NCBI RefSeq assembly: GCF_044704955.1
Contig: NC_091979.1
Coordinates: forward strand, 228,656,001-228,720,000
Source: Pristiophorus japonicus
Taxonomy: Eukaryota
Length of the DNA stretch: 64,000 bases
Direction of reading: 5' to 3'
A program made the translations under genes and the position numbers. Positions 1,090-64,000 of this stretch are shown here, one piece after another. The number at the start of each line of letters is the position of its first letter. The first letter of the stretch is position 1. The notes under the pieces are model-generated. The model was not told the origin of the DNA and did no database searches. It was given only the letters and a program-made list of their open reading frames with translations.

Positions 1090-2925
1090 GCGTCAGTCGT
1101 AGCTGAGTGGGCAGCACTCTCATCTCTTGAGTCATAAGATCGAGGGTTCAAGTCCCACTCCAGGGACTTGAGCACTAGATTTGAGGCGGATACTCCCATC
1201 GAGCGACACGCCGCCGGAGGGGCGGGACAGGGGGAGCGACGCGCCGCCGGAGGGGAGGGACAGGGGGAGCGACGCGCCGCCGGAGGGGAGGGACAGGGGG
1301 AGCGACGCAACGCCGGAGGGGAGGGACAGGGGGAGCGACGTGCCGCCGGAGGGGAGGGACAGGGGGAGCGACGCGCCGCCGGAGGGGTGGGACAGGGGGA
1401 GCGACGCGCCGCCGGAGGGGCGGGACAGGGGGAGCGCCGCGCCGCCGGAGGGGAGGGACAGGGGGAGCGCCGCGCCGCCGGAGGGGAGGGACAGGGGGAG
1501 CGCCGCGCCGCCGGAGGGGAGGGGAGGGACAGGGGGAGCGACACGCCGCCGGAGGGGAGGGACAGGGGGAGCGACACGCCGCCGGAGGGGAGGGACAGGG
1601 GGAGCGACACGCCGCCGGAGGGGAGGGACAGGGGGAGCGACACGCCGCCGGAGGGGAGGGACAGGGGGAGCGACACGCCGCCGGAGGGGAGGGACAGGGG
1701 GAGCGACACGCCGCCGGAGGGGAGGGACAGGGGGAGCGACACGCCGCCGGAGGGGAGGGACAGGGGGAGCGACACGCCGCCGGAGGGGAGGGACAGGGGG
1801 AGCGACACGCCGCCGGAGGGGAGGGACAGGGGGAGCGACACGCCGCCGGAGGGGAGGGACAGGGGGAGCGACACGCCGCCGGAGGGGAGGGACAGGGGGA
1901 GCGACACGCCGCCGGAGGGGAGGGACAGGGGGAGCGACACGCCGCCGGAGGGGAGGGACAGGGGGAGCGACACGCCGCCGGAGGGGAGGGACAGGGGGAG
2001 CGACACGTCGCCGGAGGGGAGGGACAGGGGGAGCGACACGCCGCCGGAGGGGAGGGACAGGGGGAGCGACACGCCGCCGGAGGGGAGGGACAGGGGGAGC
2101 GACACGCCGCCGGAGGGGAGGGACAGGGGGAGCGACACGCCGCCGGAGGGGAGGGACAGGGGGAGCGACACGCCGCCGGAGGGGAGGGACAGGGGGAGCG
2201 ACACGCCGCCGGAGGGGAGGGACAGGGGGAGCGACACGCCGCCGGAGGGGAGGGACAGGGGGAGCGACACGCCGCCGGAGGGGAGGGACAGGGGGAGCGC
2301 CGCAGCGCCGGAGGGGAGGGACAGGGGGAGCGACACGCCGCCGGAGGGGAGGGACAGGGGGAGCGACACGCCGCCGGAGGGGAGGGACAGGGGGAGCGCC
2401 GCAGCGCCGGAGGGGAGGGACAGGGGGAGCGACACGCCGCCGGAGGGGAGATACTGAGGGAGCGCCGCAGCGCCGGAGGGGAGGGACAGGGGGAGCGACA
2501 CGCCGCCGGAGGGGAGGGACGGGGGGAGCGACACGCCGCCGGAGGGGAGGGACAGGGGGAGCGACACGCCGCCGGAGGGGAGGGACAGGGGGAGCGACAC
2601 GCCGCCGGAGGGGAGGGACAGGGGGAGCGACACGCCGCCGGAGATGCCACCTTTTGGATGCGATGTTAAACCGAGGCCCCGTCTGCTCTCTCGTGGACGT
2701 AAAAGGCACGCTTCTAAAGAAGAACTTATCCTGGACCGATGTTTATCCCTCAACCAACATCACCAAAAAGAATTACATTGCTGTTTGTGGGAGCTTGCTG
2801 TATGCAAATTAGCTGCTGCGTTTCCTACATTACAACAGTTTGAAAGTATGTAATTGGCTGTAAAGCGCTTTGGGACGTCCTGAGGTTGTAAAAGGCACTA
2901 CAGAAATGGAAATCTTTCTTTCTTA
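1090..2925 (+). mobile_element. tRNA-derived DeuSINE-like SINE (SacSINE1-like) containing an internal minisatellite
   Basis: A/B-box head (GGTTCAAGTCCC at ~1145); Deu-like domain from 2641 (TAAACCGAGGCCCCGTCTG...TTGCTGTTTGTGGGAGCTTGC); TCTT tail. Confidence 0.8.
1201..2645 (+). repeat. 33-bp GC-rich minisatellite (about 43 copies)
   Basis: Unit GCCGCCGGAGGGGAGGGACAGGGGGAGCGACAC. Confidence 0.97.
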
Positions 2926-4531: not shown

Positions 4532-4995
4532 GAGAGAGGTCGGGCAGGGAGTGGTCAGACCTGGGCCTGCAGCCCAGTGCACACCCCGAGGGGTCAGAGG
4601 GAGAGAGGTCGGGCAGGGAGCGGTCAGACTTGGGCCTGCAGCCCAATGTACACCCAGAGGGGTCAGAGGGAGAGAGGTCGGGCAGGGAGAGTTCAGACAT
4701 GGGCCTGCAGCCCAGTGCGCACTCCGCGGGGTCAGAGGGAGAGAGGTCGGGCAGGGAGCGGTCAGACCTGGGCCTGCAGCCCAGTGTACACCCCGAGTGG
4801 CCGGAGCTAGAGAGAGAGATCAGGCACGGAGCGGTCAGACCTGGGCCTGCAGCCTAGTGCACACACCGAAGGGTCAGAGGGAGAGAGATCGGGCAGGGAG
4901 CGGTCAGACCTGGACCTGCTGTCCAGTGCACACCCCGAAGGGCCAGAGGGAGGGAGCAGGTCGGGCACGGAGCGGTCAATCCAGTGCACGCCCTC
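4532..4995 (+). repeat. About 69-bp tandem repeat (6-7 copies)
   Basis: GGGCAGGGAG recurs at 4542, 4611, 4680 and 4749. Confidence 0.9.
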
Positions 4996-6490: not shown

Positions 6491-6612
6491 CTAAGTGGGA
6501 GTAGAATACACCAGGGCCTCGGTTACAAGATACAAAAAAGGAAACACCAGAAATATGAGAGCAAGACAGTCAGCTGGAATATAAACTGCTCCTGGACCTG
6601 TCATTAAGCTAA

Positions 6613-8926
6613 GGGGGTGGGGGGGGGCGAGAGAGGGTGGGGGGGGGCGAGAGAGGGTGGGGGGGGCGAGAGAGGGTGGGGGGGGCGAGAGAGGGTGGGG
6701 GGGGCGAGAGAGGGTGGGGGGGGGCGAGAGAGGGTGGGGGGGGGGCGAGAGAGGGTGGGGGGGGGCGAGAGAGGGTGGGGGGGGGCGAGAGAGGGTGGGG
6801 GGGGGCGAGAGAGGGGTGGGGGGGGGCGAGAGAGGGTGGGGGGGGGCGAGAGAGGGTGGGGGGGGGCGAGAGAGGGTGGGGGGGGCGAGAGAGGGTGGGG
6901 GGGGGCGAGAGAGGGTGGGGGGGGGCGAGAGAGGGTGGGGGGGGGCGAGAGAGGGTGGGGGGGGGCGAGAGAGGGTGGGGGGGGGCGAGAGAGGGTGGGG
7001 GGGGGGCGAGAGAGGGTGGGGGGGGGGCGAGAGAGGGTGGGGGGGGGCGAGAGAGGGTGGGGGGGGGCGAGAGAGGGTGGGGGGGGGCGAGAGAGGGTGG
7101 GGGGGGGCGAGAGAGGGTGGGGGGGGCGAGAGAGGGTGGGGGGGGCGAGAGAGGGTGGGGGGGGGCGAGAGAGGGTGGGGGGGGCGAGAGAGGGTGGGGG
7201 GGGCGAGAGGGGGTGGGGGGGGGCGAGAGAGGGTGGGGGGGGCGAGAGAGGGTGGGGGGGGGCGAGAGAGGGTGGGGGGGGCGAGAGAGGGTGGGGGGGC
7301 GAGAGAGGGTGGGGGGGGCGAGAGAGGGTGGGGGGGCGAGAGAGGGTGGGGGGGCGAGAGAGGGTGGGGGGGGCGAGAGAGGGTGGGGGGGGCGAGAGAG
7401 AGGGTGGGGGGGGCGAGAGAGGGTGGGGGGGGCGAGAGAGGGTGGGGGGGGCGAGAGAGGGAGGGGGGGGGGCGAGAGAGGGTGGGGGGGGCGAGAGAGG
7501 GTGGGGGGGGGCGAGAGAGGGTGGGGGGGGGGCGAGAGAGGGTGGGGGGGGGCGAGGAGAGGGTGGGGGGGGGCGAGAGAGGGTGGGGGGGGGCGAGAGA
7601 GGGTGGGGGGGGCGAGAGAGGGGTGGGGGGCAGAGAGGGTGGGGGGCGAGAGAGGGTGGGGGGGGGCGAGAGAGGGTGGGGGGGGCGAGAGAGGGTGGGG
7701 GGGGGCGAGAGAGGGTGGGGGGGGGCGAGAGAGGGTGGGGGGGCGAGAGAGGGTGGGGGGGGCGAGAGAGGGTGGGGGGGGGCGAGAGAGGGTGGGGGGG
7801 GCAGAGAGGGTGGGGGGGGGGCGAGAGAGGGTGGGGGGGGGGCGAGAGAGGGTGGGGGGGGGCGAGAGAGGGTGGGGGGGGGCGAGAGAGGGTGGGGGGG
7901 GCGAGAGAGGGTGGGGGGGGGCGAGAGAGGGTGGGGGGGGCGAGAGAGGGTGGGGGGGGCGAGAGAGGGTGGGGGGGGCGAGAGAGGGTGGGGGGGGGCG
8001 AGAGAGGGTGGGGGGGGCGAGAGAGGGGGGGGGGGGCGAGAGAGGGTGGGGGGGGCGAGAGAGGGTGGGGGGGGCGAGAGAGGGTGGGGGGGGGCGAGAG
8101 AGGGTGGGGGGCGAGAGAGGGTGGGGGGGGCGAGAGAGGGTGGGGGGGGGCGAGAGAGGGTGGGGGGGGCGAGAGAGGGTGGGGGGGGGCGAAGAGAGGG
8201 TGGGGGGGGGCGAGAGAGGGTGGGGGGGGGCGAGAGAGGGTGGGGGGGGGCGAGAGAGGGTGGGGGGGGCGAGAGAGGGTGGGGGGGGGCGAGAGAGGTG
8301 GGGGGGGGCGAGAGAGGGTGGGGGGGGGGCGAGAGAGGGTGGGGGGGGGCGAGAGAGGGGTGGGGGGGGGCGAGAGAGGGTGGGGGGGGGCGAGAGAGGG
8401 TGGGGGGGCGAGAGAGGGTGGGGGGGGGCGAGAGAGGGTGGGGGGGGCGAGAGAGGGTGGGGGGGGCGAGAGAGGGTGGGGGGGGCGAGAGAGGGTGGGG
8501 GGGGGCGAGAGAGGGTGGGGGGGGCGAGAGAGGGTGGGGGGGGCAGAGAGGGTGGGGGGGGGCGAGAGAGGGTGGGGGGGGCGAGAGAGGGTGGGGGGGG
8601 CGAGAGAGGGTGGGGGGGGGCGAGAGAGGGTGGGGGGGGGGCGAGAGAGAGGGGGGGGGGGCGAGAGAGGGTGGGGGGGGCGAGAGAGGGTGGGGGGGCG
8701 AGAGAGGGTGGGGGGGGCGAGAGAGGGTGGGGGGGGCGAGAGAGGGTGGGGGGGGCGAGAGAGGGTGGGGGGGCGAGAGAGGGTGGGGGGGCGAGAGAGG
8801 GTGGGGGGGGCGAGAGAGGGTGGGGGGGGCGAGAGAGGGTGGGGGGGGCGAGAGAGGGTGGGGGGGGGCGAGAGAGGGTGGGGGGGGGCGAGAGAGGGTG
8901 GGGGGGGGCGAGAGAGGGTGGGGGTG
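6613..8926 (+). repeat. About 20-bp G-run minisatellite GCGAGAGAGGGT(G)n
   Basis: More than 100 copies with variable G-run length. Confidence 0.97.
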
Positions 8927-9092
8927 GCGTCGATCTGCAGGTGAGCCGATGTCATGGTTTAGAAATACAGGAATAGTTGGCCATCTGGGCTGTTGCTTTC
9001 CGCTCCATTGCACACTCTGACTGGCCCGCTGAGTGGGAAGTGTGGGTATAACGGTGAGGATTACCCCTGCGGTATTTCCCTCTGCGACTTAC

Positions 9093-14449: not shown

Positions 14450-15040
14450 ACATGTACAGTAGACACCTCAAGCCGCTGGAGAAATGCCATCAACGATGTT
14501 TCCGCAAGATCCTACAAATCTCCTGGAAGGACAGACGCACCAACGTTCGTGTCCTCGTCCAGGCCAACATCCCCAGCATTGAAGCACTGACCACACTTGA
14601 TCAGCTCCGCTGAGCAGGCCACATTGTTCGCATGCCAGACACGAGACTCCCAAAGCCAGCGCTCGACTCGGAACTCCTTCACAGCAAACGAGCCAAAGGT
14701 GCGCAGAGGAAATGTTACAACGACACCCTCAAAGCCTCCCTGATAAAGTGCAACATCCCCACTGACACCTGGGAGACCCTGGTCAAAGAGGAGGAAGTGC
14801 ATCCGGGAGGGCGCTGAGCACCTCGAGTCTCATCGCCGAGAGCATGCAGAAATCAAGCACAGGCAGCAGAAAGAGCGTGTGGCAAGCCTGTCCCACCCAC
14901 CCCTTCCCTCAACAACTATCTGTCCCACTTGTGACAGGGACTGTGGTTCTCGTACTGGAATGTTCAGTAACCTAAGGATTCATTTTAAGAGTGGAAGCAA
15001 GCCTTCCTTGATTCCGAAGGACTGCCTATGATGATGATGA
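14450..15040 (+). mobile_element. RTE-clade LINE 3' fragment
   Basis: HQRCFRKILQISW, RMPDTRLPK, C-terminal Cys motif, (ATG)n tail. Confidence 0.85.
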
Positions 15041-29639: not shown

Positions 29640-30640
29640 TATTACAACTTGTATTTATATAGCGCATTTAACATAGTGAAACGTCTCAAGGCTCTTCACA
29701 GGAGTATTATGCCATAAAAATTTGATACCGAGACGCACAAGTAGAAATTAGCAGAGGGTTTGGTCAAAGAGGTATGTTTTAAGGAGCGTCTTGAAGGAGG
29801 AAAGAGGGGTGGAGAGGTTTAGGCAGGGAGTTCCAGAGCTTGGAGCCCAGACAACAGAAGGCAGAGCCACCAATGGTTGAGCGATTATAATCAGGAATGC
29901 TCAGGAGGGCAGAATTAGAGGAGCGCAGACATCTCGGGGGGGCGGGGTTTGTGGGGCTGGAGGAGAGTACAGAGATGGGGAGGGACGAGATCATGGAGCG
30001 ATTTAAGAATAAGGATAAATTTGAAACTGAGGTGTTGCTTAACGGAAGCCAATGTATGTCAGTGAGCACAGGGGTGATGGGTGAGCGGGACTTGTTTCGA
30101 GTTAGGACACGGGCAGCCGAGTTTTGAATCACCTCTAGTTTATGTAGGGTAGAACGTGGGAGGCCAGCCAGGAGTGTGTTGGAATAGTAAAGTCTAGAGG
30201 GCTTCAGCAGCAGATGAGCTGAGGCAAGAGCGGAGACAGGCGATCTTACGGAGGTGGAAATAGGCGGTCTTAGTTATGTTGCGGATAAGTGGTCGAAAGC
30301 TCATTTCAGGGTCAAATATGACACCAAGGTTGTGAACAGTTTGATTCAATCAGTCTCAGAGGTTGGGGAGAGAGATAGAGTCAGTGGCTAGGGAACGGGG
30401 TTTGTGGCAGGGACCGAAAACAATGGCTTCAATCTTCCAGATATTCAATTATAGAAAATTTCTGCTCATCCAGAACTGGATGTCGGACAAACAGTCTGAC
30501 AATTTAGAGACTGTGGAGGGGTCGAGAGAAGTGGTGGAGAGTTAGAGCTGGGTTTCTTCAGCATACATGTGGGAACTGCCGCTGTGTTTCCAGATGATGT
30601 CGCCAAGGGCAACATGTAGATGAGAAATAAGAGGGGGCCA
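29640..30640 (-). mobile_element. L2 LINE 3' fragment
   Basis: IQNSAARVLT..ITPVL..HWLP and GGSAF..GSKLWNSLP. Confidence 0.85.
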
Positions 30641-40020: not shown

Positions 40021-40879
40021 TAGGGTGTGCGGGGCCAGCCAGTCACGGCCACATTTGCACTGTAACTCTCCAACATCCAGTCCACTCACTATTCCCTCAT
40101 CAACCCCATTGTACAACCCTAATAAACATAAAGAAAATGGACTCCTAAACCTGCATTCTCCCCCTTCACCAACAGCAGGAGCTCCCCATTCCCATGGCCC
40201 ACACTGGGCCCATGATCGGGACACAGCCCCCCCAATCCCGGTCCCTATTTGGAAAGAAATAAAATCAGGTCGCTGTGAGACACAACATCTCGGGCTCCGC
40301 TCGGTGTGGGAACGAAGATGCTTTTAGAGGTGGGAGTGGGTCCAGTGTGGACGTGGTAACGACATGCAGACAGGGCTTTGTATGGTTACAGCACTGGACC
40401 AGCAACCCAGAGCTCCCACGGTCAAATCCCACTAGGGCACGCTGGGAAACTAAATGCAACAAAACATTAAAGCTGCAGGATTGTTGTAAAAACCTAACTG
40501 GTTCATTGAGGAACCTGCCACCCCGACCAGGTAGATGCTGAATGCCCTCGAAAGTGACCAGGGCCACTCGAGTGGCCAATAAGGGTTGGACCTGCCAGAG
40601 CTGCCTACATCACAAGAACAAAAATGATGCTCATTAGCTGAAGTGCGAGATTTAAACGCAGTATCAGAACAATATTCATCGAGGAAATTGATGTTTAATC
40701 ACGGTGAGTCGGTGTGAAGTGAGGCGCTGACTGATTAAATTCTGTCACATGCACACTTCACAAGAATTGTGCTCGCCCCCCTCCCCAACTCAGTTTCCAT
40801 GCGTGTTTATATTATGGGATGTATAAAACCGGTGAATAAATGAATTACAATTCCCTCAGTCACTTGTTCAAGCGTCACG

Positions 40880-42372
40880 GAAAAGAGGCTGGAGGGGGGG
40901 GGTGGGGGGGAAGAGAGGCTGGAGGGGGGGGGTGGGGGGAGAAAGAGAGGCTGGGGGGGGGGGGAAGAGAGACTGCTGGGGGGGGGGGAGAGAGACTGGG
41001 GGGGGGGGGAAAGAGAGACTGGGGGGGGGGGGGAAAGAGAGGCTGGGGGGGGGGGGGAAAGAGAGGCTGGGGGGGGGGGGGAAAGAGAGGCTGGGGGGGG
41101 GGGGGAAAGAGAGGCTGGGGGGGGGGGGGAAAGAGAGGCTGGGGGGGGGAAGAGAGGCTGGGGGGGGGAAGAGAGGCTGGGGGGGGAAGAGAGGCTGGGG
41201 GGGGGAAGAGAGGCTGGGGGGGGGAAGAGAGGCTGGGGGGGGGAAGAGAGGCTGGGGGGGGAAGAGAGGCTGGGGGGGGGGAAGAGAGGCTGGGGGGGGG
41301 AAGAGAGGCTGGGGGGGGGAAGAGAGGCTGGGGGGGGGAAGAGGGGCTGGGGGGGGGGAAGAGAGGGGCTGGGGGGGGGGAAGAGAGGGGCTGGGGGGGG
41401 GGAAGAGAGGGGCTGGGGGGGGAAGAGAGGGGCTGGGGGGGGGAAGAGAGGGGCTGGGGGGGGGGAAGAGAGGGGCTGGGGGGGGGGAAGAGAGGGGCTG
41501 GGGGGGGAAGAGGAGGGGCTGGGGGGGGTAAGAGAGGGGCTGGGGGGGGGAAGAGAGGGGCTGGGGGGGGGGGAAGAGAGGGGCTGGTGGGGGGAAGAGA
41601 GGGGCTGGGGGGGGGGAAGAGAGGGGCTGGGGGGGGGAAGAGAGGGGCTGGGGGGGGGAAGAGAGGGGCTGGGGGGGGGAAGAGAGGGGCTGGGGGGGGG
41701 GGAAGAGAGGGGCTGGGGGGGGGAAGAGAGGGGCTGGGGGGGGGAAGAGAGGGGCTGGGGGGGGGAAGAGAGGGGCTGGGGGGGGAAGAGAGGGGCTGGG
41801 GGGGGAAGAGAGGGGCTGGGGGGGGGGGAAGAGAGGGGCTGGGGGGGGGGGGGAGAGAAGGGGCTGGGGGGGGGAAGAGAGGGGCTGGGGGGGGGGAGAG
41901 AGGGGCTGGGGGGGGAAGAGAGGGGCTGGGGGGGGGAAGAGAGGGGCTGGGGGGGGGAAAGAGGCTGGGGGGAAGAGAGGGGCTGGGGGGGGGAANNNNN
42001 NNNNNNNNNNNNNNNNNNNNNNNNNNNNNNNNNNNNNNNNNNNNNNNNNNNNNNNNNNNNNNNNNNNNNNNNNNNNNNNNNNNNNNNNNNNNNNNNNNNN
42101 NNNNNNNNNNNNNNNNNNNNNNNNNNNNNNNNNNNNNNNNNNNNNNNNNNNNNNNNNNNNNNNNNNNNNNNNNNNNNNNNNNNNNNNNNNNNNNNAGGGG
42201 GGGGGAGAGGCGGTGGGGGGAGGGGGGGGAGAGGCGGTGGGGAGAGTGGCGCTGGGGGGAGGGGGAGAGGCGCTGTGGGTGGGGGGGGAGAGGCGCTGTG
42301 GGTGGGGGGGGAGAGGCTCTAGGGGTGGGGGGGGAGGGGGGAGGGGAGGGGGGGGGAGGGGGAGGGGGGGTA
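40880..42372 (+). repeat. G-run minisatellite AAGAGAGG(GG)CT(G)n spanning an assembly gap (N 41996-42195)
   Basis: Directly visible; 200 Ns. Confidence 0.95.
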
Positions 42373-46647: not shown

Positions 46648-47355
46648 TCACACAGGGATAGGGAATCCTCACATATCACACAGGGACAGAGAACTCCATA
46701 CATCACACAGGGATAGAGAAATCCATACATCACACAGGGATAGAGAATCCCATCCACACAAAGGGATAGTAAACCCCAACAGAGCACAGAGGGATATGAA
46801 CCCCAGTACATCATATAAGGATAGGAACCACGATACCGCACAATCTGTAACCTCATCGTTCCGCACATCCCTAACTGCTTGCCCCACCTGTGACACTGAT
46901 GGTCTGACCACTTTGGGGAATGATTGATCTGCTAAGATGTCACTGAGCTTTGCGTAAGAGAAAATAGAAATTAATTTACAGAAAGTTAGGATTTCATTGA
47001 TCTCCCAAGGTTACTGGTGTTGGTTTTCAGTGATAACTAAATGAAAACATGTCACTTAGGAAAGAAAAATATATTCATTAGTGATAACTGGTGGCATGTT
47101 GCTAAATGGTGTTAATAATTAACTCATCACAATAATGTTTAAACAAATGTTCCCTGTCGCCCACTAACTCAATCCTGCTCCCCGGCCACTGTCTCAGGCT
47201 GAATCAGAATGTTCAGACGCTCACTAAGACTGCCTATTTCCACCTCCGTAACATCGCCCATTTCCTCCCCTACCTCAACCCAACTCCATATCCTCTCCTT
47301 CAGTAGGGCTGCTGACTTCCACCCCCATAATATGACCCACCTCTGCCGCTACATT

Positions 47356-50300
47356 AGCACATACACAACAATTCCAATTTTAGTATATCTGTAAAGCATG
47401 CACTTCCATGTTCCGCCACCAGGGAGCTCATCCTGAAGTTCCAAGGGATCCCAGCAGCCATTGGGAGCACTGTATAATAAGCCGGCCCCTAAGGCCTGAT
47501 CCTCACTCTGGAGTGTCTTATGAAAGACTGAGGTCACTGTTACTTTAATCTCCCTGTGTGCAGCCTCATCTGTGTTAGGAACACAATAACTGGCGACGAG
47601 AATACGAATCCAACGTAAAGATACAGCAAACTGTGGGCATCCTGGAGAAATTCTCGGAGGGTGAGGACTGGGAAGCCTATGTCAAATGGCTAGACAAGTA
47701 CTTTGTAGCCAACGAGCTGGACAGAGAAGGAAGCGCTGCAAAAAGGAGAGCGGTCCTCCTCACAGTCTGCGGGGCACCAACCTACAGCCTCATGAAGAAT
47801 CTTCTGGCTCCGGTGAAACCCACAGATAAGTCGTATGAGGAGCTGTATACACTGGATCGGGAGCATCTTAACCCGAGGGAGAGCGTGCTGATGGCGAGGT
47901 ATCGGTTCTACACATGCCAGCGATCTGCAGGTCAGGAAGTGGCGAGCTATGTTGCTGAGCTAAGGCGACTAGCAGGACAATGTGAGTTTGATGGATAACT
48001 GGAGCAAATGCTCAGAGACTTTTTTGTATGGGGCATTGGCCACGAGACTATCCTATGAAAACTTTTGACTGTAGAGACACCGACCCTCAGTAAGGCCATT
48101 GCGATAGCACAGACGTTTATGTCCACCAGTGATAACACCAAACAAATCTCTCAGCACACAAGTGCTAGCAATGTTCATAAATTAACTGGAACTGTGTTTG
48201 CGAGCAGAAATGTACAGGGCAGAACTCACGAGTCTGCAACTGCCAGCAGGCCTCAGGTGACCCAGATGAATCAGAGTCCCCAACAAAGGATGAATGCAAG
48301 GCAATTCACACCTTGTTGGCGTTGTGGAGGCTTCCATTCAGCCTATTCATGCCGCTTCAAAGGGTATGTTTGCAAGAGCTGTGGAACAATGGGGCACCTC
48401 CAACGAGCTTGCAGATGAGCTGCAAGCTCTGCAAAACCTGCTAACCACCACGTGGCAAAGGAAGATCAGTCCATGGTGGATCAAAGCAATTTTGAGCCTC
48501 AGAGAGAGGAGGCAGATGCTGAAGTACACTGGGTACACACATTTTTGACGAAATGTCCACCTATAATGCTAAACGTAAAATTGAATGGCTTACCCGTAGC
48601 CATGAAACTGGACACTGGCGCTAGCCAATCCATCATGAGTAAAAAGATATTTGAGAGACTGTGGTGCAACAAGGCATTCAGATCAGCCCTGAGCCTCATC
48701 CACACAAAACTGAGACCGTACACCAAAGAGCTTATCACTGTCCTGGGCAGCGCCATGGTCAAGGTCACTTACGAGGGCACGTTGCACGAACTGCCACTTG
48801 GGATTGTCCCGGGCGATGGCCCCACACTGCTTAGAAGGAGCTGGCTGGGCAAAATCCGTTGCAACTGGGATGACATCCGAGTGCTATCATATGTCGATGA
48901 GGCCTCATGTACCCAGGTTCTTAACAAATTTCCTTCCCTTTTTGAGCCAGGCATTGGAAACTTTTCCGGGGCGAAAGTGCGGATCCACTTGGTCCCAGAG
49001 GCACGACCCATTCACCACAAGGCGCAAGCGGTAACTCACATGATGAGGGAGAGAGTGGAAATCGAGCTGGTTGGCTGCAACGCGAGGGCATCATTTCCCG
49101 AGTGGAATTCAGCAAGTGGGCCAGCCCGATTGTTCCAATACTCAAAAGTGATGGCACGGTCAGGATTTGCGGTGATAATAAGTAACTATAACCATTTCTC
49201 GCTACAGGACCAATACCCACTACCTAAGGCAGACGACCTATTTGCGACGCTGACAGGAGGCAAGACATTCACCAAGCTCGACCTGACTTCGGCCTACATG
49301 ATGCAGGAGCTGGAGGAGTCTTCGAAGGGCCTCACCTGCATCAACACGCACAAGGGACTGTTCATCTACAACAGATGCCCGTTTGAAATTTGGTCGGCTG
49401 CAGCGATCTTCCAGAGAAACACGGAGAGCCTACTCAAGTCGGTACCACGCATGGTGGTTTTTCAGGACGACATATTGGTCACGGGTCAGGACAACGTCGA
49501 GCACCTACAAAACCTGGAGGAGGTCCTCCAGTGACTGGATCGTGAAGGGCTGCAGCTGAAGAGGTCGAAATGTGTCTTCATGGCAACAGAAGTGGAGTTT
49601 TTGGGTAGAAAGTTCGTGGCGGACGGCATTCGGCCCACAGACGCCAAGACAGAGGCTATCAGGAATGCGCCCAGGCCACAAAACGTCACAGAGCTGCTGT
49701 CATTCCTGGGACTCCTCAACTATTTTGGTAACTTTCTACCGGGGTTAAGCACCCTTTTAGAGCCCCTACATGTGTTATTGTGCAAAGGTGAGAACTGGGT
49801 ATGGGGAAAACACCAAGTAATTGCTTTTGAGAAAGCCAGAAACATTTTATGCTCCAACAAGCTGCTTGTATTGTATAACCCGTGTAAAAGACTTGTGCGA
49901 GCACGTAATGCGTCGTTGTATGGAGTTGGGTGTGTATTACAACAAGTTAGCGCTGTGGGGAAGTTGCAACCTGTCGACCATGCCTCCAGGAGCTTGTCTA
50001 AGGCCGAGAGGGCCGACAACATGATTGAGAAAGAGGCATTAGCGTGTGTGTTCGGGGTAAAGAAAATGCATCAGTACCTGTTTGGCCTCAAATTTGAGCT
50101 GGAAACCGATCACAAGCCCCTCACATCCCTGTTCGCCAAAAACAAGGGGATAAATACTAATGCCTCTGCCCGCATACAAAGGTGGGCACTCACGCTATCA
50201 GTGTATAACTAAACCATCCGCCACAGGCCAGGCACCGAGAACTGTGCGGATGCTCTCAGTCAGCTACCATTGCCCACCACGGGGGTGGAAATTGCGCAGC

Positions 50301-51987
50301 CTGCAAACTTGTTGATGGTGGCGCAGCCCACAGACTTGTTGATCGTCATGGAAGTGTTTGAAAATGATAAATCACCTGTCACGGCCCACCAGATTAGGAC
50401 TTGGACCAGCCAAGATCCTCTGCTGTCCCAAGTAAAAAACTGTGTACTACATGGGAGTTGGGCCAGCATCCCCGTTGAAATGCAAGAGCCAATCAAGCCA
50501 TTCCAGCGGCAAAAGGACGAGCTGTCCATTCAGGCAGACTGCCTGTTGTGGGGTAACCGTGTAGTGCTACCAAAAAAGGGCAGGGAGACGTTCATCTTGG
50601 ATCTCCACAGCACACACCCGGGTATAGTAATGATGAAAGCGATAGCCAGATCCCACGTGTGGTGGCCCGGTATAATGACTCTGACTTAGAGTACTGTGTA
50701 TGGCAATGCAGCGTATGTGCTCAGTTGAGCAACGCGCCCAGAGAGGCACCACTAAGTTTGTGGTCCTGGCCCTCCAGACCATGGTCGAGGATCCATGGCG
50801 GCTATGCGGGCCCGTTTCTCGGTAAAATGTTCCTGGTGGTGGTGGATGCTTTTTCAAAATGGATTGAATGTGAAATAATATCGGGAAGCACCGCCACCGC
50901 CACCATTGAAAGCCTGAGGGCCATTATTGCCACCCACGGCCTGCCTGACATACTGGTCAGTGACAACGAGCCATGTTTCACCAGTGCCGAATTTAAAGAA
51001 TTCATGACCCGCAATGGGATCAAACATGTCACCTTGGCCCCGTTTAAACCAGCCTCCAATGGGCAGGCAGAGCGGGCAGTACAAACCATCAAACAGAGCC
51101 TTAAACGAGTTACAAAAGGCTCACTCCAAACCCGCCTGTCCCAAGTACTGCTCAGCTACCGCACGAGACCCCACTCACTCACAGGGGTGCCCCTGGCTGA
51201 GCTACTCATGAAAAGGGCACTTAAAACCAGACTCTCGCTGGTCCACCCCAACCTGCATGATCAGGTAGAGAGCAGGCGGCAGCAACAAAATGTAAACGAT
51301 GGTCGCGCCACTGTGTCACGGGAAATTGATCTGAATGACCCTGTGTATGTGCTAAACTATGGACATGGCACCAAGTGGATCATGGGCACGGTGATAGCTA
51401 AAGAAGGGAATAGGGTGTTTGTAGTCAAACTAGACAATGAACAAATTTGCAGAAAGCACCTGGACCAAACGTGGCTGCGGTTCACAGACTGCCCTGAACA
51501 ACCCACAGCAGACACCACCTTTTTTGAGCCCACAACACACACCCAAAGGATCAACGACACCATGCCGGACCAGGAGATCAAACTCATCACGCCCAACAGC
51601 CCAGCAAGGCCAGGCTCACCTAGCAGCCCTACAGGGCCAACAACACACCAGAACAGACATTTGTACCGAGGCGGTCCACCAGGGAAAGAAAGGCTCCTGA
51701 CCGTCTCACCTTGTAAATAGTTTTCACTTTGACTTTGGGGGGGGGGGGAGTAATGTTGTGTATCTGTAAAGTATGCACTCCCATGTTCCGCCACCAGGGA
51801 GCTCATCCGCTGAAGTCCCAAGGGATCCCACCATCCCTTGGGAGCACTGTATATAAGCCGGCCCCTAAGGCCTGTTCCTCACTCTGGAGTGTCTTATTAA
51901 AGACTGAGGTCACTGTTACTTTAACCTCCCTGTGTGCAGTCTCATCTGTGTTAGGAACACAATAGGAATGATACAGAGAAGATTAGC
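47356..51987 (+). pseudogene. U6 snRNA fragment (about nt 15-55) split by the Gypsy insertion
   Basis: AGCAC plus inverted ATATACTAAAATTGGAA on the left and GGAATGATACAGAGAAGATTAGC on the right rebuild the U6 core, including the ACAGAGA box. Confidence 0.85.
47361..51964 (+). mobile_element. Full-length degenerate Ty3/Gypsy LTR retrotransposon (about 210-bp LTRs at ~47379-47588 and 51754-51964)
   Basis: PBS TGGCGACGAG at 47591 (tRNA-Ser-like); gag with CCHC knuckles, protease LDTGA, RT FQDD, RNase H, then integrase; G-run PPT; stops and frameshifts; LTRs about 94-95% identical by eye. Confidence 0.95.
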
Positions 51988-52339
51988 CCATCAGCTGCTG
52001 AAGCCCTCATCCATCACCTCTAGACTTGACTATTCCAATACTCCCCTGGCCAGCCTCCCATGTTCCACCCTGTATACTTGAGCTCATCCAAAACTCTGCT
52101 GCCCATGTCCTAGCTCGCACAAAGTCCCATTCAACCATCACCCCCTGTGCTCACTGACCTACTTCCAGTCCGGTAACGCCATGATTTAAAATTCTCTTCC
52201 TCATGTTCAAATCTCTCCACGGCCTCGCCCCTCCCAATCGCTGTAACCTCCTCCAGTCCCACAACCCCAACCCCCAAACTCTGACTCCAGCATCTTGTGC
52301 TTCATCCCAACCCCTCCCTTCACCCTAGCACTGGCAACT

Positions 52340-52935
52340 GTATGGCTCAGAGACGTGGACCATGTACATTACACACCTCAAATCGCTGGAGAAATACCAC
52401 CAACAATGTCTCCACAAGATCCTGCAAATCCCCTGGAATCAGGCCAACATCCCCAGCATCGAAGCACTGACCACACTCGACCAGCTCTGTTGGGCGGGCC
52501 ACATTGTTCGCATGCCTGACACAAGACTCCTAAAGCAAGCGCTATACTTGGAACTCCTACATGGCAAGCGAGCCTCAGGTGGGCAGAGGAAATGTATCAA
52601 AGATACCCTCAAAGCCTCTCTGATAAAGTGCAACATCTCCACCGACACCTGGGAGTCCCTGACCAAAGACCGCCCTAAGTGGAGGAAGAGCATCCGGGAG
52701 GATGCTGAGCAACTCGAGTCTCATCGCCGAGTACATGCAGAAAGCAAGCACAGGCAGCAGAAGGAGCGTGTGGCAAACCAGACTCCCCACCCATCCTTTC
52801 CCTCAACCACTGTGTGCCCCACCTGTGACAGAGACTGTAATTCCTGTATTGGACTGTACAGTCACCTGAGAACTCACTTTTCGAGTGGAAGCAAGTCTTG
52901 ATTCCTCGATTTCGAGAGACTGCCTGCGATGATAC
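52340..52935 (+). mobile_element. RTE-clade LINE 3' fragment
   Basis: WAGHIVRMPDTRL..CPTCDRDC..GLYSHLRTH. Confidence 0.87.
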
Positions 52936-61209: not shown

Positions 61210-63561
61210 GGGCCCAAGTTTCCACATGATTTGCGCCTGATTTTTAGGAGCAACTGGTGGAGAACGGACTATCTTAGAAATTGCAATTCTCCACATTTTC
61301 TTTTCTGCAGTTCTAGTCAGTTAGAACAGTTTCACTTTGGAACAGAATTTTTTCTTCAAAAGGGGGCGTGTCCGGCCACTGACACTTGATTTCAAATTTT
61401 CCACAGTGAAAACGTACTCCAAACTAACTTAGAATGGAGCAAGTGAAGATTTTTGTAGAACTGAAAACAATAAAAAATCAGGCGCATGTTAGAAATTAGG
61501 CGTCCAGAACAAGGTGGGGGGGGGAAGGGAAGTCATTAAATTCTATAATAAATCCTTATTTATACTTCTACAAATATTATACAAATAAATCCAACCTGAA
61601 TAAACATTTATAAGCAAAGAAAAGATTAAATAAACCATCTTCCTACCTGTGTGAAAGTGCTTCAGCCAGGGAGAATGCTGCAGGAAGCCTCACAAGTTGA
61701 GGCAGCCGTTCGTTCCCGCGGGGGGGGGGGGAGGAGGAAGCCGTTCGTTCCCGCGGGGGGGGGGGGGGGGGGAGGAGGAAGCCGTTCATTCCCGTGTGGG
61801 GGGGGGGGGAGGAGGCAGCCGTTTGTTCCCGCGGGGGGGGGGGGGAGGAGGAAGCCGTTCGTTCCCGCGGGGGGGGGGGGGAGGAGGAAGCCGTTCGTTC
61901 CCGCGGGGGGGGGGGGGGAGGAGGCAGCCGTTTGTTCCCGCGGGGGGGGGGGGGGGGAGGAGGAAGCCGTTCGTTCCCGTGTGGGGGGGGGGGAGGAGGA
62001 AGCCGTTCGTTCCCGCGGGGGGGGGGGGGGGAGGAGGCAGCCGTTTGTTCCCGCGGGGGGGGGGGGGAGGAGGAAGCCGTTCGTTCCCGCGGGGGGGGGG
62101 GGGAGGAGGAAGCCGTTCGTTCCCGCGGGGGGGGGGGGGGGAGGAGGCAGCCGTTTGTTCCCGCGGGGGGGGGGGAGGAGGAAGCCGTTCGTTCCCGTGT
62201 GGGGGGGGGGAGGAGGCAGCCGTTTGTTCCCGCGGGGGGGGGGGGGGAGGAGGAAGCCGTTCGTTCCTGCGGGGGGGGGGGGAGGAGGAAGCCGTTCGTT
62301 CCCGCGGGGGGGGGGGAGGAGGAAGCCGTTCGTTCCCGCGGGGGGGGGGGAGGAGGCAGCCGTTTGTTCCCGCGGGGGGGGGGGAGGAGGAAGCCGTTCG
62401 TTCCCGCGGGGGGGGGGGGGAGGAGGAAGCCGTTCGTTCCTGCGGGGGGGGGGGGGGAGGAGGAAGCCGTTCGTTCCCGCGGGGGGGGGGGAGGAGGAAG
62501 CCGTTTGTTCCCGCGGGGGGGGGGGGGGGGGAGGAGGAAGCCGTTCGTTCCCGCGGGGGGGGGGGGGGGAGGAAGCCGTTCGTTCCCGTGTGGGGGGGGG
62601 GAGGAGGCAGCCGTTTGTTCCCGCGGGGGGGGGGGGGGAGGAGGCAGCCGTTTGTTCCCGCGGGGGGGGGGGAGGAGGAAGCCGTTCGTTCCCGTGTGGG
62701 GGGGGGGAGGAGGCAGCCGTTTGTTCCCGCGGGGGGGGGGGGGGGAGGAGGAAGCCGTTCGTTCCCGCGGGGGGGGGGGAGGAGGAAGCCGTTCGTTCCC
62801 GCGGGGGGGGGGGAGGAGGCAGCCGTTTGTTCCCGCGGGGGGGGGGGGGGGAGGAAGCCGTTCGTTCCCGCGGGGGGGGGGGGAGGAGGCAGCCGTTTGT
62901 TCCCGCGGGGGGGGGGGAGGAGGAAGCCGTTCGTTCCCGGGGGGGGGGGAGGAGGAAGCCGTTCCCGCGGGGGGGGGGGGGGGGAGGGAGTGCGGGCCCG
63001 ACCGACCGACCGAACGCAGCGGGGGGGAGGAAGCCGTTCCAGACGGTGGGCGGGGGGGGGGAAGGAGACAGTGAGAAGGCTGCAGGAAGCCTCACAAGTT
63101 CAGCAGCCATTCCCCGACAGCAGGGGGGAGGGGAGGCCGTCAGGAAACGACTGCCTCAACTTTCTGAGGCTTCCTGCAGCCTTCTCACTGCTGCAAGAAG
63201 CCTCAGTGCTGATGGCAATGTGCTTTTATTAAAAAATGTTCAAAAATTAAACAGTTACAAAGAACTATAAAAATGGCCGAGTGCCAATGTTTCCTTCACA
63301 CTGCGCGTGCGCGAACGCTCCAATGCACACGCGCAGGGTTGCCGGCAGGAAAAAAACTAATTTAAATGGTACCCGCCCCCTCCCACTTACAAAATCGGCA
63401 CGAGTGGTAGGCTCCGCCCCCCTGGGCACCGCGCCAAGCAGACATGGAGCTGCAGGGCGTTCCAGAATCGCGCGTTTTTTTTCCGCCGCCGTTTTCGGCG
63501 CGAAAAACGGGCGCCCAGCTCAGAGGGGCACCCATTTTTTATTGTGTGGAAACTTGGGGCC
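61210..63561. mobile_element. Non-autonomous TIR element (PIF/Harbinger-like) with an internal minisatellite
   Basis: TIRs GGGCCCAAGTTTCCACA / TGTGGAAACTTGGGGCC; ATT on both flanks; no transposase ORF. Confidence 0.7.
61703..62985 (+). repeat. About 35-bp G-run minisatellite AGGAGGAAGCCGTTCGTTCCCGC(G)n
   Basis: Directly visible. Confidence 0.96.
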
Positions 63562-63579
63562 ATTGTGCCATGCGACATA

Positions 63580-64000
63580 GAATGTAGGTATACTGCAGCC
63601 TGTGACAGACTGTAGGTATACTGCAGCCTGAGACATGGACTGTAGGTATACTGCAGCCTGCGACACAGACTGTAGGTATACTGCAGCCTGCGACACGGAT
63701 TGTAGGTATACTGCAGCCTGCGACACAGACTGTAGGTATACTGCAGCCTGCGACACAGACTGTAGGTATACTGCAGCCTGCGACACAGACTGTAGGTATA
63801 CTGCAGCCTGCGACACAGACTGTAGGTATACTGCAGCCTGCGACACGGACTGTAGGTATACTGCAGCCTGCGACACAGACTGTAGGTATACTGCAGCCTG
63901 TGACATGGACTGTAGGTATACTGCAGCCTGCGACAGACTGTAGGTATACTGCAGCCTGTGACATGGACTGTAGGTATACTGCAGCCTGCGACACAGACTG
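63580..64000 (+). repeat. 30-bp tandem repeat GACTGTAGGTATACTGCAGCCTGCGACACA, running off the window end
   Basis: At least 14 near-perfect copies. Confidence 0.96.

What the first reader, a model, noticed from the sequence alone, without database searches (positions are those of the whole stretch)
47356..51987. Gypsy retrotransposon inserted in a U6 snRNA fragment, with its TSD hidden by a 28-bp micro-inversion
Seen: the 3' LTR is followed by GGAAT-GATACAGAGAAGATTAGC, the U6 core. The 5' junction looks broken, but reverse-complementing 47361-47388 gives ATATACTAAAATT-GGAAT-TGTTGTGTAT. That restores U6 (AGCAC-ATATACTAAAATTGGAA), a perfect 5-bp TSD (GGAAT) and an LTR start identical to the 3' LTR (TGTTGTGTATCTGTAAAG). 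The inverted block has near-inverted ends (ATATAC/GTGTAT), consistent with template switching at a hairpin. The unit lies between two halves of an L2 fragment (~47215-47290 and ~51990-52320). Known: Dada transposons and Utopia/Keno retroelements target snRNA genes, and Ty3 targets Pol III genes. Inference: hitting a ~40-bp U6 piece may be chance, or may point to an undescribed U6-targeting vertebrate Gypsy family.
Basis: partly seen in the sequence, partly recalled or inferred. Interest (0 to 1): 0.78.

Follow-up and report, generated by a model that had tools for sequence, protein, structure and literature searches.

The report
Retrotransposon inside a dead U6 fragment
An old, broken jumping gene landed in a 41-base dead scrap of the U6 splicing-RNA gene and one of its ends was later flipped by a tiny inversion; other copies of the same element sit in varied DNA, so this looks like an ordinary chance hit, not a U6-seeking element.

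Summary
A decayed Ty3/Gypsy element (211-bp LTRs about 5% diverged; protease-RT-RNase H-integrase order) sits in U6 nt 15-55, a 40/41 match to human U6. It has a perfect 5-bp duplication of U6 nt 33-37. Read on the other strand, 47361-47388 gives 13 U6 bases, the duplication and the first 10 LTR bases.

Targeting is not supported. In public contigs of one sample, the family is very abundant. Its LTR ends run into diverse DNA: 145 records at the 3' end (agreement 0.35) and 127 at the 5' end (0.49, as expected for random flanks). Simulation excludes U6 in 10% or more of those junctions but not a few percent. Both copies of the duplication carry the same C-to-T change at a U6 CpG, so the target was probably already a decayed pseudogene. 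It is cut at both ends and lies inside a LINE. Known Pol III-targeting Gypsy elements insert beside genes, not at +33 to +37.

Caveats: the read tool drops human-like contigs and collapses identical ones, which could hide U6-flanked copies. No contig covered the junction, so the inversion is unverified. Best reading: nested insertions plus a known kind of micro-inversion.

The parts
47150..47285 (+). Left half of an old LINE fragment (L2-type by recalled protein motif), with an internal deletion
   Evidence: Aligns to the copy at 29880-30420 (minus strand): 47223-47285, extended left to about 47150 across a gap
47277..47285 (+). Left copy of a degenerate 6-9 bp duplication of LINE sequence around the whole insert (right copy 51985-51993)
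   Evidence: Both halves align to reference positions 30212-30220; sequences side by side; LINE contigs of organisms B and C leave the window at 47276-47282 (table 7)
47283..47355 (.). Unidentified stretch of about 70 bp between the LINE half and U6; probably a piece of another low-copy repeat
   Evidence: No match in the window beyond 12-mers; contigs of organism B cover 47280-47330 and 47286-47330, and one runs 47240-47307 across the LINE junction (table 8)
47356..47360 (+). U6 nt 15-19, not inverted
47361..47388 (-). Micro-inversion (22-28 bp) holding U6 nt 20-32, the left target duplication (47371-47375) and the first 10 LTR bases (47361-47370)
47389..47588 (+). Remainder of the 5' LTR
   Evidence: 10 substitutions in 199 aligned bases against the 3' LTR, K2P 0.052; alignment
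47591..47600 (+). Primer-binding site; a tRNA-Ser(GCU) match is recalled, not tested
   Evidence: Position directly behind the 5' LTR
47621..48418 (+). gag, broken by in-frame stops; PNMA-like capsid and zinc knuckle, both below Pfam cut-offs
48419..51720 (+). pol in pieces (stops and frame changes): aspartyl protease, RT, RNase H, integrase zinc domain, integrase core; no chromodomain; no env-sized frame
   Evidence: relatives
51737..51753 (+). Polypurine tract and short spacer before the 3' LTR
   Evidence: the same kind of tract precedes LTR starts in X1 contigs (table 7)
51754..51964 (+). 3' LTR, 211 bp, TG...TA ends
51965..51969 (+). Right target duplication GGAAT (U6 nt 33-37 with C37 to T)
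51970..51987 (+). U6 nt 38-55; its last 3 bases are shared with the right LINE half (microhomology)
51985..52320 (+). Right half of the LINE fragment

Best explanation
Four ordinary events stacked at one site. (1) An old LINE fragment was broken by an insert made of about 70 bp of other DNA and a U6 piece (nt 15-55). Most likely a LINE reverse transcriptase primed internally on U6 RNA through 3-5 bases of complementarity to the target (a tailless, 3'-truncated snRNA retrocopy), stopped in the 5' stem-loop and picked up another template, leaving a 6-9 bp duplication. (2) The dead U6 piece lost its CpG (C37 to T). (3) A copy of a very abundant Gypsy family with no U6 specificity integrated there with a 5-bp duplication. 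The family may weakly prefer G...C 5-mers, which the intact U6 site would fit. (4) Later a 22-28 bp micro-inversion between 6-bp imperfect inverted repeats flipped the 5' junction, by replication template switching or microhomology-mediated repair. The copy then decayed. Shown: the anatomy, the duplication, the LTR divergence, the diversity of other flanks. Inferred: the order of events 1-2-3, how the U6 piece got there, the mechanism of the inversion, the weak site preference.
For: Diverse flanks: X1, 145 records with loose ends behind 47588, median 255 letters, agreement 0.35, A/T-rich consensus; X4, 127 records before 47386, agreement 0.49, against 0.47-0.49 expected for 7 fixed plus 23 random letters. 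A U6 share of 10% among the 145 gives P 0.009-0.04, and 15% gives P under 0.001. No strand-change joint among the 15 rows of table 5 or the 12 rows of table 5c that were shown, although joints with sides of 20-28 letters were reported. Both duplication copies have T where U6 has C37; only the right one is in a CpG now, so one change before insertion is the simplest account; CpG observed/expected in the window is 0.51. The U6 piece is cut at both ends and lies in a LINE, while vertebrate snRNA promoters lie upstream of the gene (PMC4494074, passage). 3'-truncated snRNA retrocopies with junction complementarity made up 65% of the snRNA copies analysed in Doucet et al. (PMC4476161 section 8). Microinversions of 17-33 nt flanked by short, often imperfect inverted repeats are described (PMC8755829 abstract and section 6). 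No chromodomain in the integrase tail.
Against: A 41-bp target is small, so a chance hit is a priori rare per insertion. The read tool silently drops contigs that match human DNA, U6 is near-identical to human U6, and identical junctions collapse into few contigs, so U6-flanked copies could be hidden. The 3'-flank consensus matches U6 at 8 of 11 A/T columns (P about 0.05-0.10 with no U6 flanks; 0 of 7 G/C columns), so a share of 0-5% cannot be told from zero. All flank data come from one sample that may not be the window's species or individual (47291-47358 is uncovered in X1). Table 7 showed 24 rows and left out 340. The LINE duplication is degenerate (1-3 mismatches).
Confidence: 0.85

Rival explanations
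1. Partial preference: the family inserts widely but favours the U6 site (nt 33-37), as Pokey favours 28S rDNA while also inserting elsewhere. This copy is one such hit in a pseudogene.
For: The hit itself. The filter and contig collapse could hide U6 junctions. Slight, non-significant excess of consensus matches to U6 (likelihood about 2-2.5 times higher at 2-3% than at 0). The consensus 3' flank begins with G and has C at position 5, like intact U6 nt 33-37.
Against: G1 and C5 are explained by a general target bias, since none of the 7 G/C columns after the duplication follows U6. The target was already mutated and promoterless. No LTR-U6 junction among the 3 distinct metagenome loci that matched the junction pattern, all plain U6 genes, a weak test.
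Confidence: 0.07
2. Strict U6-targeting vertebrate Gypsy family (Dada-U6-like specificity, or Ty3-like tethering to the Pol III machinery).
For: Clean insertion inside U6 sequence with a perfect duplication.
Against: At least 145 and 127 junction records with non-U6, near-random flanks. The published threshold of more than 20% of flanks (PMC4494074 section 6) is not met among visible junctions. Pol III-targeting Gypsy elements insert at the start site or 1-33 bp outside the gene (PMC5911963 passages). Dada-U6 uses nt 65-70 (PMC3706591).
Confidence: 0.02
3. The Gypsy-in-U6 arrangement is real but the 28-bp inversion is an assembly or polishing error.
For: No contig spans the inverted junction in 4 of 4 runs laid.
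Against: Size and flanking imperfect inverted repeats fit real microinversions (0.6% of 28-mers have such ends; PMC8755829). The missing cover is explained by the filter or a different individual or species. Base-level assembly errors of this form are uncommon (own knowledge).
Confidence: 0.06

Closest known systems
Metazoan Ty3/Gypsy LTR retrotransposons with 'K02A2.6-like' integrases (Mag-type by recall)
   Same: LTR-PBS-gag-pol(PR-RT-RH-IN)-PPT-LTR, 5-bp duplication. Best integrase hit is a hagfish Gypsy integrase-like protein, 61% identical over 74% of the query; named relatives are K02A2.6-like proteins of fish, acorn worm, feather star and sea anemone at 41-49%.
   Different: No tree was built, so the clade name is not tested. 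The LTRs end in TA rather than CA here, and so do most of the family in organism A (table 3).
Dada-U6 DNA transposons (Kojima and Jurka 2013, PMC3706591; PMC8869645)
   Same: A DDE-type element found inside U6 sequence, with a short duplication.
   Different: Dada is a DNA transposon, duplicates 6 bp at U6 nt 65-70 and is mostly found in U6 genes. This is an LTR retrotransposon at nt 33-37 of a dead fragment, and its family has diverse flanks.
Ty3, Tj1, DGLT-A, Skipper-2 (Pol III-targeting Gypsy elements; PMC5911963)
   Same: Ty3/Gypsy superfamily; a Pol III gene sequence at the site.
   Different: These insert at the transcription start site or just outside tRNA genes. This one lies 33-37 nt inside a truncated retrocopy with no sign of U6 gene context.
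3'-truncated (tailless, Group III) snRNA retrocopies and U6-LINE chimeras (Doucet et al. 2015, PMC4476161)
   Same: 3'-truncated U6 piece, no A tail, short complementarity to the target at the 3' junction, short duplication.
   Different: Here the piece also appears 5'-truncated and is joined to about 70 bp of other DNA; the paper covers mammals and a few other tetrapods, and puts 5'-truncated plus 3'-truncated cases without clear duplication to manual check.
Microinversions flanked by short inverted repeats (PMC8755829; PMC5453318 seen as listing only)
   Same: 17-33 nt, exact reverse complement, flanked by 3-7 nt imperfect inverted repeats.
   Different: No difference in kind; here it happens to straddle an LTR-host junction, which dates it after the integration.

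Membership tests
Ty3/Gypsy LTR retrotransposon | Two direct LTRs with PBS and polypurine tract | tested here: met
Ty3/Gypsy LTR retrotransposon | pol order protease, RT, RNase H, integrase (integrase last) | tested here: met
   Pfam on six frames' pieces
Ty3/Gypsy LTR retrotransposon | 4-6 bp target duplication | tested here: met
   5 of 5 bases identical once the inverted block is read on the minus strand
Ty3/Gypsy LTR retrotransposon | Canonical TG...CA termini | tested here: not met
   Both LTRs end in TA; C at 47587 in only 16% (X1) and 9% (X4) of summed depth. Not a strict requirement of the superfamily (own knowledge).
Mag clade | RT or integrase groups with Mag elements in a tree | not tested
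   Only database names and a recalled primer-site type; no reference elements were on hand; the paper search for the primer-site motif found it in none of the 10 papers listed
U6-targeting element (Dada-U6-like specificity) | More than 20% of flanks are the target (criterion of PMC4494074) | tested here: not met
   Among 145 visible 3' junction records, 10% or more is excluded; the human-like filter and contig collapse limit the test
U6-targeting element (Dada-U6-like specificity) | Several independent copies at the same nucleotide of U6 | tested here: inconclusive
   One copy only; none in metagenome or viral contigs; no host genome held
Ty3-like Pol III tethering | Insertion at or just upstream of the start site of an intact Pol III gene | tested here: not met
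   Site is nt 33-37 of a fragment inside a LINE
Chromovirus-type targeting | Chromodomain at the integrase C-terminus | tested here: not met
   Only a weak Agenet (SH3-like fold) match, E 0.03, below cut-off
Tailless (Group III) snRNA retrocopy | 3' truncation with complementarity to the target at the junction, no A tail | tested here: met
   Ends at nt 55; 3 bases shared with the LINE half, 4 of 5 with the reference LINE
Tailless (Group III) snRNA retrocopy | Clear target duplication directly around the snRNA piece, intact 5' end | tested here: inconclusive
   Degenerate 6-9 bp duplication around U6 plus 70 bp; likeness to U6 nt 1-14 to the left of 47356 is marginal (4.9% of 7,971 random sites score as well)
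L2 LINE (the interrupted repeat) | Placement of the ORF2 in the L2 clade | not tested
   The repeat nature is shown and the translation resembles a recalled L2 ORF2 C-terminal motif; no library of repeats was available
Microinversion with flanking inverted repeats | Exact reverse complement, 17-33 nt, flanked by short inverted repeats | tested here: met
Microinversion with flanking inverted repeats | Present in reads, or differing from an orthologous site | not testable with these tools
   No contig spans the junction; one read-laying run per session

The most novel reading that the evidence does not exclude
This abundant vertebrate Gypsy family inserts widely but has a real, repeated preference for U6 nt 33-37 (a few percent of copies, hidden here by the human-like filter and contig collapse). 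It would be, as far as my searches reach, an undescribed case of an LTR retrotransposon that favours a site inside an snRNA gene.
Probability: 0.07. Interest if true: 0.7.

Novelty: new member of a known kind. Interest (0 to 1): 0.2.

Why it matters
As it stands it is a tidy piece of genome archaeology. Four events can be ordered at one site, and it shows that a 28-bp inversion can hide a target duplication and an LTR end from LTR-finding software, so intact old elements get missed or mis-bounded. It does not open a new mechanism. If a genome-wide count did show a U6 site preference, it would matter: site-specific insertion inside snRNA genes is described for non-LTR elements and Dada DNA transposons, and my three searches on it listed no title or abstract opening that describes it for an LTR retrotransposon.

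Tried and rejected
No whole genome is held, so copies could not be collected directly. No second copy of the LTR in the window (self-BLAST); no tRNA; no other U6 match among the 8 Rfam matches up to E 5. Viral contigs: the two LTR-end patterns each gave 1 locus, both with only 19-20 matching bases and no further LTR likeness; the U6 core pattern gave 6 loci, of which the 4 scanned had no Rfam U6 match and the other 2 showed the same context as three of those; the integrase found no relative. Metagenomes: the LTR-end-plus-U6 pattern gave 4 rows, 3 distinct loci, all ordinary U6 genes of other eukaryotes without an LTR. Organisms B and C (X5, X6) hold only the LINE and, for B, the 70-bp stretch; they have no depth on the LTR. 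The lack of cover at 47342-47358 in all four runs says nothing, given the filter. Summed contig depth was not used as a copy number. The idea that the U6 piece reaches the true 5' end in decayed form is marginal. A stable hairpin as cause of the inversion is rejected. Earlier scan notes: nothing by sequence or by place; nothing for the 8-word search; the 3-word search gave U6 retrocopies inside Gypsy elements in another genome, the reverse arrangement. No structure prediction was run, as it would not decide targeting. Papers seen: PMC8869645, PMC3706591, PMC5911963, PMC4457786 as passages; PMC4476161 as passages and section 8; PMC8755829 as abstract and section 6; PMC4494074 as passages and section 6; all others as search listings. 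No supplements were read; the flank tables of the Dada and Utopia papers, and Repbase entries, which I could not search, may bear on novelty.
Full report
What was checked. The 3' LTR runs 51754-51964 and is followed by GGAAT (51965-51969) and 18 bases of U6 (51970-51987). The 5' LTR matches it from 47389 to 47588 with 10 substitutions in 199 aligned bases and 3 gap columns, K2P distance 0.052. The reverse complement of 47361-47388, compared piece by piece, ends in 10 bases identical to the 3' LTR start, preceded by 5 bases identical to the right duplication, preceded by 13 bases that continue 47356-47360 as U6. Against human U6 as printed in PMC4457786 Table 1 (passage only, compared by eye), the flanks are nt 15-55, 40 of 41 identical, and the duplication is nt 33-37. 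Chance cannot give 28 such bases at exactly this junction. Rfam sees only the right flank (22.3 bits, E 0.038, below the gathering score of 44).

The element. Pfam finds aspartyl protease, RT, RNase H, integrase zinc domain and integrase core in that order in four of six element frames scanned. Gag gives weak PNMA-like and zinc-knuckle matches below cut-off. Gag and pol are broken into pieces by stops and frame changes. A primer site follows the 5' LTR and a purine tract precedes the 3' LTR. The integrase has 610 relatives at E 0.001 or better among 1,937 candidates, 120 listed; the best is a hagfish Gypsy integrase-like protein at 61%, and most other named ones are K02A2.6-like proteins of fish and marine invertebrates. 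The integrase tail has no chromodomain match, only a weak Agenet match (E 0.03). I call it Mag-type and the host a cartilaginous-fish-like vertebrate from recall of the primer site and the LINE repeats; neither was tested.

The site. The element and its U6 flanks lie in an older LINE fragment. Both halves align to another copy in the window, and they overlap on it by 9 positions (30212-30220). LINE contigs of other organisms leave the window at 47276-47282. So the insert that broke the LINE runs from about 47283 to 51984, with a degenerate 6-9 bp duplication. Without the Gypsy element, that insert is about 70 bp of unidentified DNA plus the U6 piece, whose last 3 bases are shared with the LINE. 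This fits a 3'-truncated snRNA retrocopy primed on the target, the commonest class (65%) among the copies analysed by Doucet et al. (PMC4476161 section 8); the extra 70 bp would need a template switch or filler DNA, which is inference. Whether the 14 bases left of 47356 are a decayed U6 5' end is undecided (4.9% of 7,971 random sites score as well). The 70-bp stretch is also found in contigs of organism B, one of which crosses the LINE junction (table 8), so this junction may be old or repeated.

Test of targeting. No genome is held, so I used public contigs. Six runs hold part of the stretch; I laid four of them, X1 and X4 (organism A, one sample), X5 and X6, on 47240-47720. In organism A the LTR and gag start are very abundant: 19,864 records laid in X1 (1,497 only partly) and 12,304 in X4 (1,135 only partly). 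At the LTR 3' end (47588), 145 X1 records run on into other DNA, median 255 letters, with an A/T-rich consensus and agreement 0.35; random flanks give 0.30-0.33. At the LTR start (47386), 127 X4 records give agreement 0.49, against 0.47-0.49 for 7 fixed and 23 random letters; the 130 X1 records there (0.50) are mixed with purine-tract junctions. The matching X4 row for 47588 was not among the 24 rows shown; 340 were left out. Over the 18 columns after the duplication, the 3' consensus matches U6 at 8 of 11 A/T columns and 0 of 7 G/C columns. Simulation gives P 0.009-0.04 for a 10% U6 share and under 0.001 for 15%, while 0-5% cannot be told apart (similar). The published working threshold for a target-specific family is more than 20% of flanks (PMC4494074 section 6). 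No strand-change joint, which a non-inverted U6-LTR junction would give, appears among the rows of tables 5 and 5c that were shown. The limits are real. The tool drops contigs that match human DNA, and U6 does. Identical junctions collapse into few contigs. Only junction contigs with enough LTR are laid. And the sample may not be the window's species. What stands is that the family has well over a hundred different non-U6 junctions.

Independent arguments. Both copies of the duplication have T where U6 has C37. In U6 that C is in a CpG; after insertion only the right copy would be. One deamination before insertion explains both, so the target was probably already a dead, methylated copy (inference; CpG observed/expected 0.51 in the window). 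The piece is cut at both ends and embedded in a LINE, and vertebrate snRNA promoters lie upstream of the gene (PMC4494074 passage), so there is nothing for Ty3-like tethering. Gypsy elements that target Pol III genes insert at the start site or 1-33 bp outside (PMC5911963 passages). Dada-U6 uses nt 65-70 with a 6-bp duplication (PMC3706591 passages). A metagenome scan for an LTR-end-plus-U6 junction gave 3 distinct loci, all plain U6 genes, which is weak evidence. One detail may make the site a little more likely than random: the 3' flank consensus starts with G and has C at position 5 in an otherwise almost all-A/T string, and the X4 5' flank consensus ends in C. A G wins a random column in 1-7% of cases, so a weak G...C target bias is plausible. 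The mutated site fits it at the G only.

The inversion. It spans host DNA, the duplication and the LTR start, so it came after integration. Its ends pair at 5 of 6 positions (0.6% of 63,745 28-mers do), the outer three bases are self-complementary so the true length is 22-28 bp, and the hairpin has almost no stability. Human-chimpanzee microinversions are 17-33 nt, exact, and always flanked by inverted repeats of 3-75 nt, 34 of 59 imperfect; the authors discuss template switching and propose microhomology-mediated break-induced replication for short imperfect repeats (PMC8755829 abstract and section 6). This case fits that class, and the mechanism cannot be chosen from one event. It could not be checked in reads: no listed piece spans the junction, and 47342-47358 has essentially no depth in any run.

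Novelty and verdict. Three paper searches on Gypsy or LTR elements and snRNA targets listed Dada, Utopia, Keno and SINEU but no LTR retrotransposon that targets U6 internally; I read listings, not all texts, and Repbase was not available. Earlier scan notes show U6 retrocopies landing inside Gypsy elements of another genome (unchecked), a reminder that U6 pieces and Gypsy DNA meet by chance in repeat-rich genomes. The finding is real and well read, but it is best explained as nested ordinary events (0.85). A partial U6 preference remains possible (0.07), strict targeting is very unlikely (0.02), and an assembly error of the inversion is possible (0.06). Interest 0.2.

Noticed in passing
window 47587 and 51963 (LTR 3' ends): Both LTRs end in TA, not CA, and in organism A the C form is only 16% (X1) and 9% (X4) of summed depth at this position: an abundant Gypsy family with mostly TG...TA termini.
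   Followed up: partly
window 47476-47477 and 47661-47674: Loose ends with high agreement (0.72-0.99) show that a related subfamily in organism A has a different middle LTR segment and a different gag start (table 7).
   Followed up: no
window 47591 joined to 47386 (X1 contig): One contig joins an LTR end to an LTR start with 11 letters between (table 5c): a tandem LTR-LTR junction in some copy.
   Followed up: no
window 47283-47355: Unidentified 70-bp stretch that is also in two to four contigs of organism B and at low depth in X4; one B contig carries the same LINE junction, a handle for finding the orthologous site.
   Followed up: partly
window 50294-50346: A 26-bp direct repeat at 27-bp spacing inside pol, between RNase H and integrase: an in-frame 9-codon duplication.
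   Followed up: no
window 1201-2643, 4532-4978, 6612-8929, 40879-42370, 61699-63071, 63571-64000: Several long tandem arrays (about 66-, 69-, 20-, 36- and 60-bp periods by self-BLAST offsets); 6612-8929 and 40879-42370 are about 79% alike; a 200-N gap lies at 41996-42195 inside the latter.
   Followed up: no
window 52329-52933 and 14451-15035: 3' end of another LINE with a C-terminal C2H2-like finger (weak Pfam match), two copies 78% alike, directly right of the interrupted LINE.
   Followed up: partly
L008 1-1220 and L009 1-1056: Metagenome contigs with clusters of divergent U6 genes, some at about 142-bp spacing, mixed with short tandem repeats; two U6 variants in one cluster.
   Followed up: no
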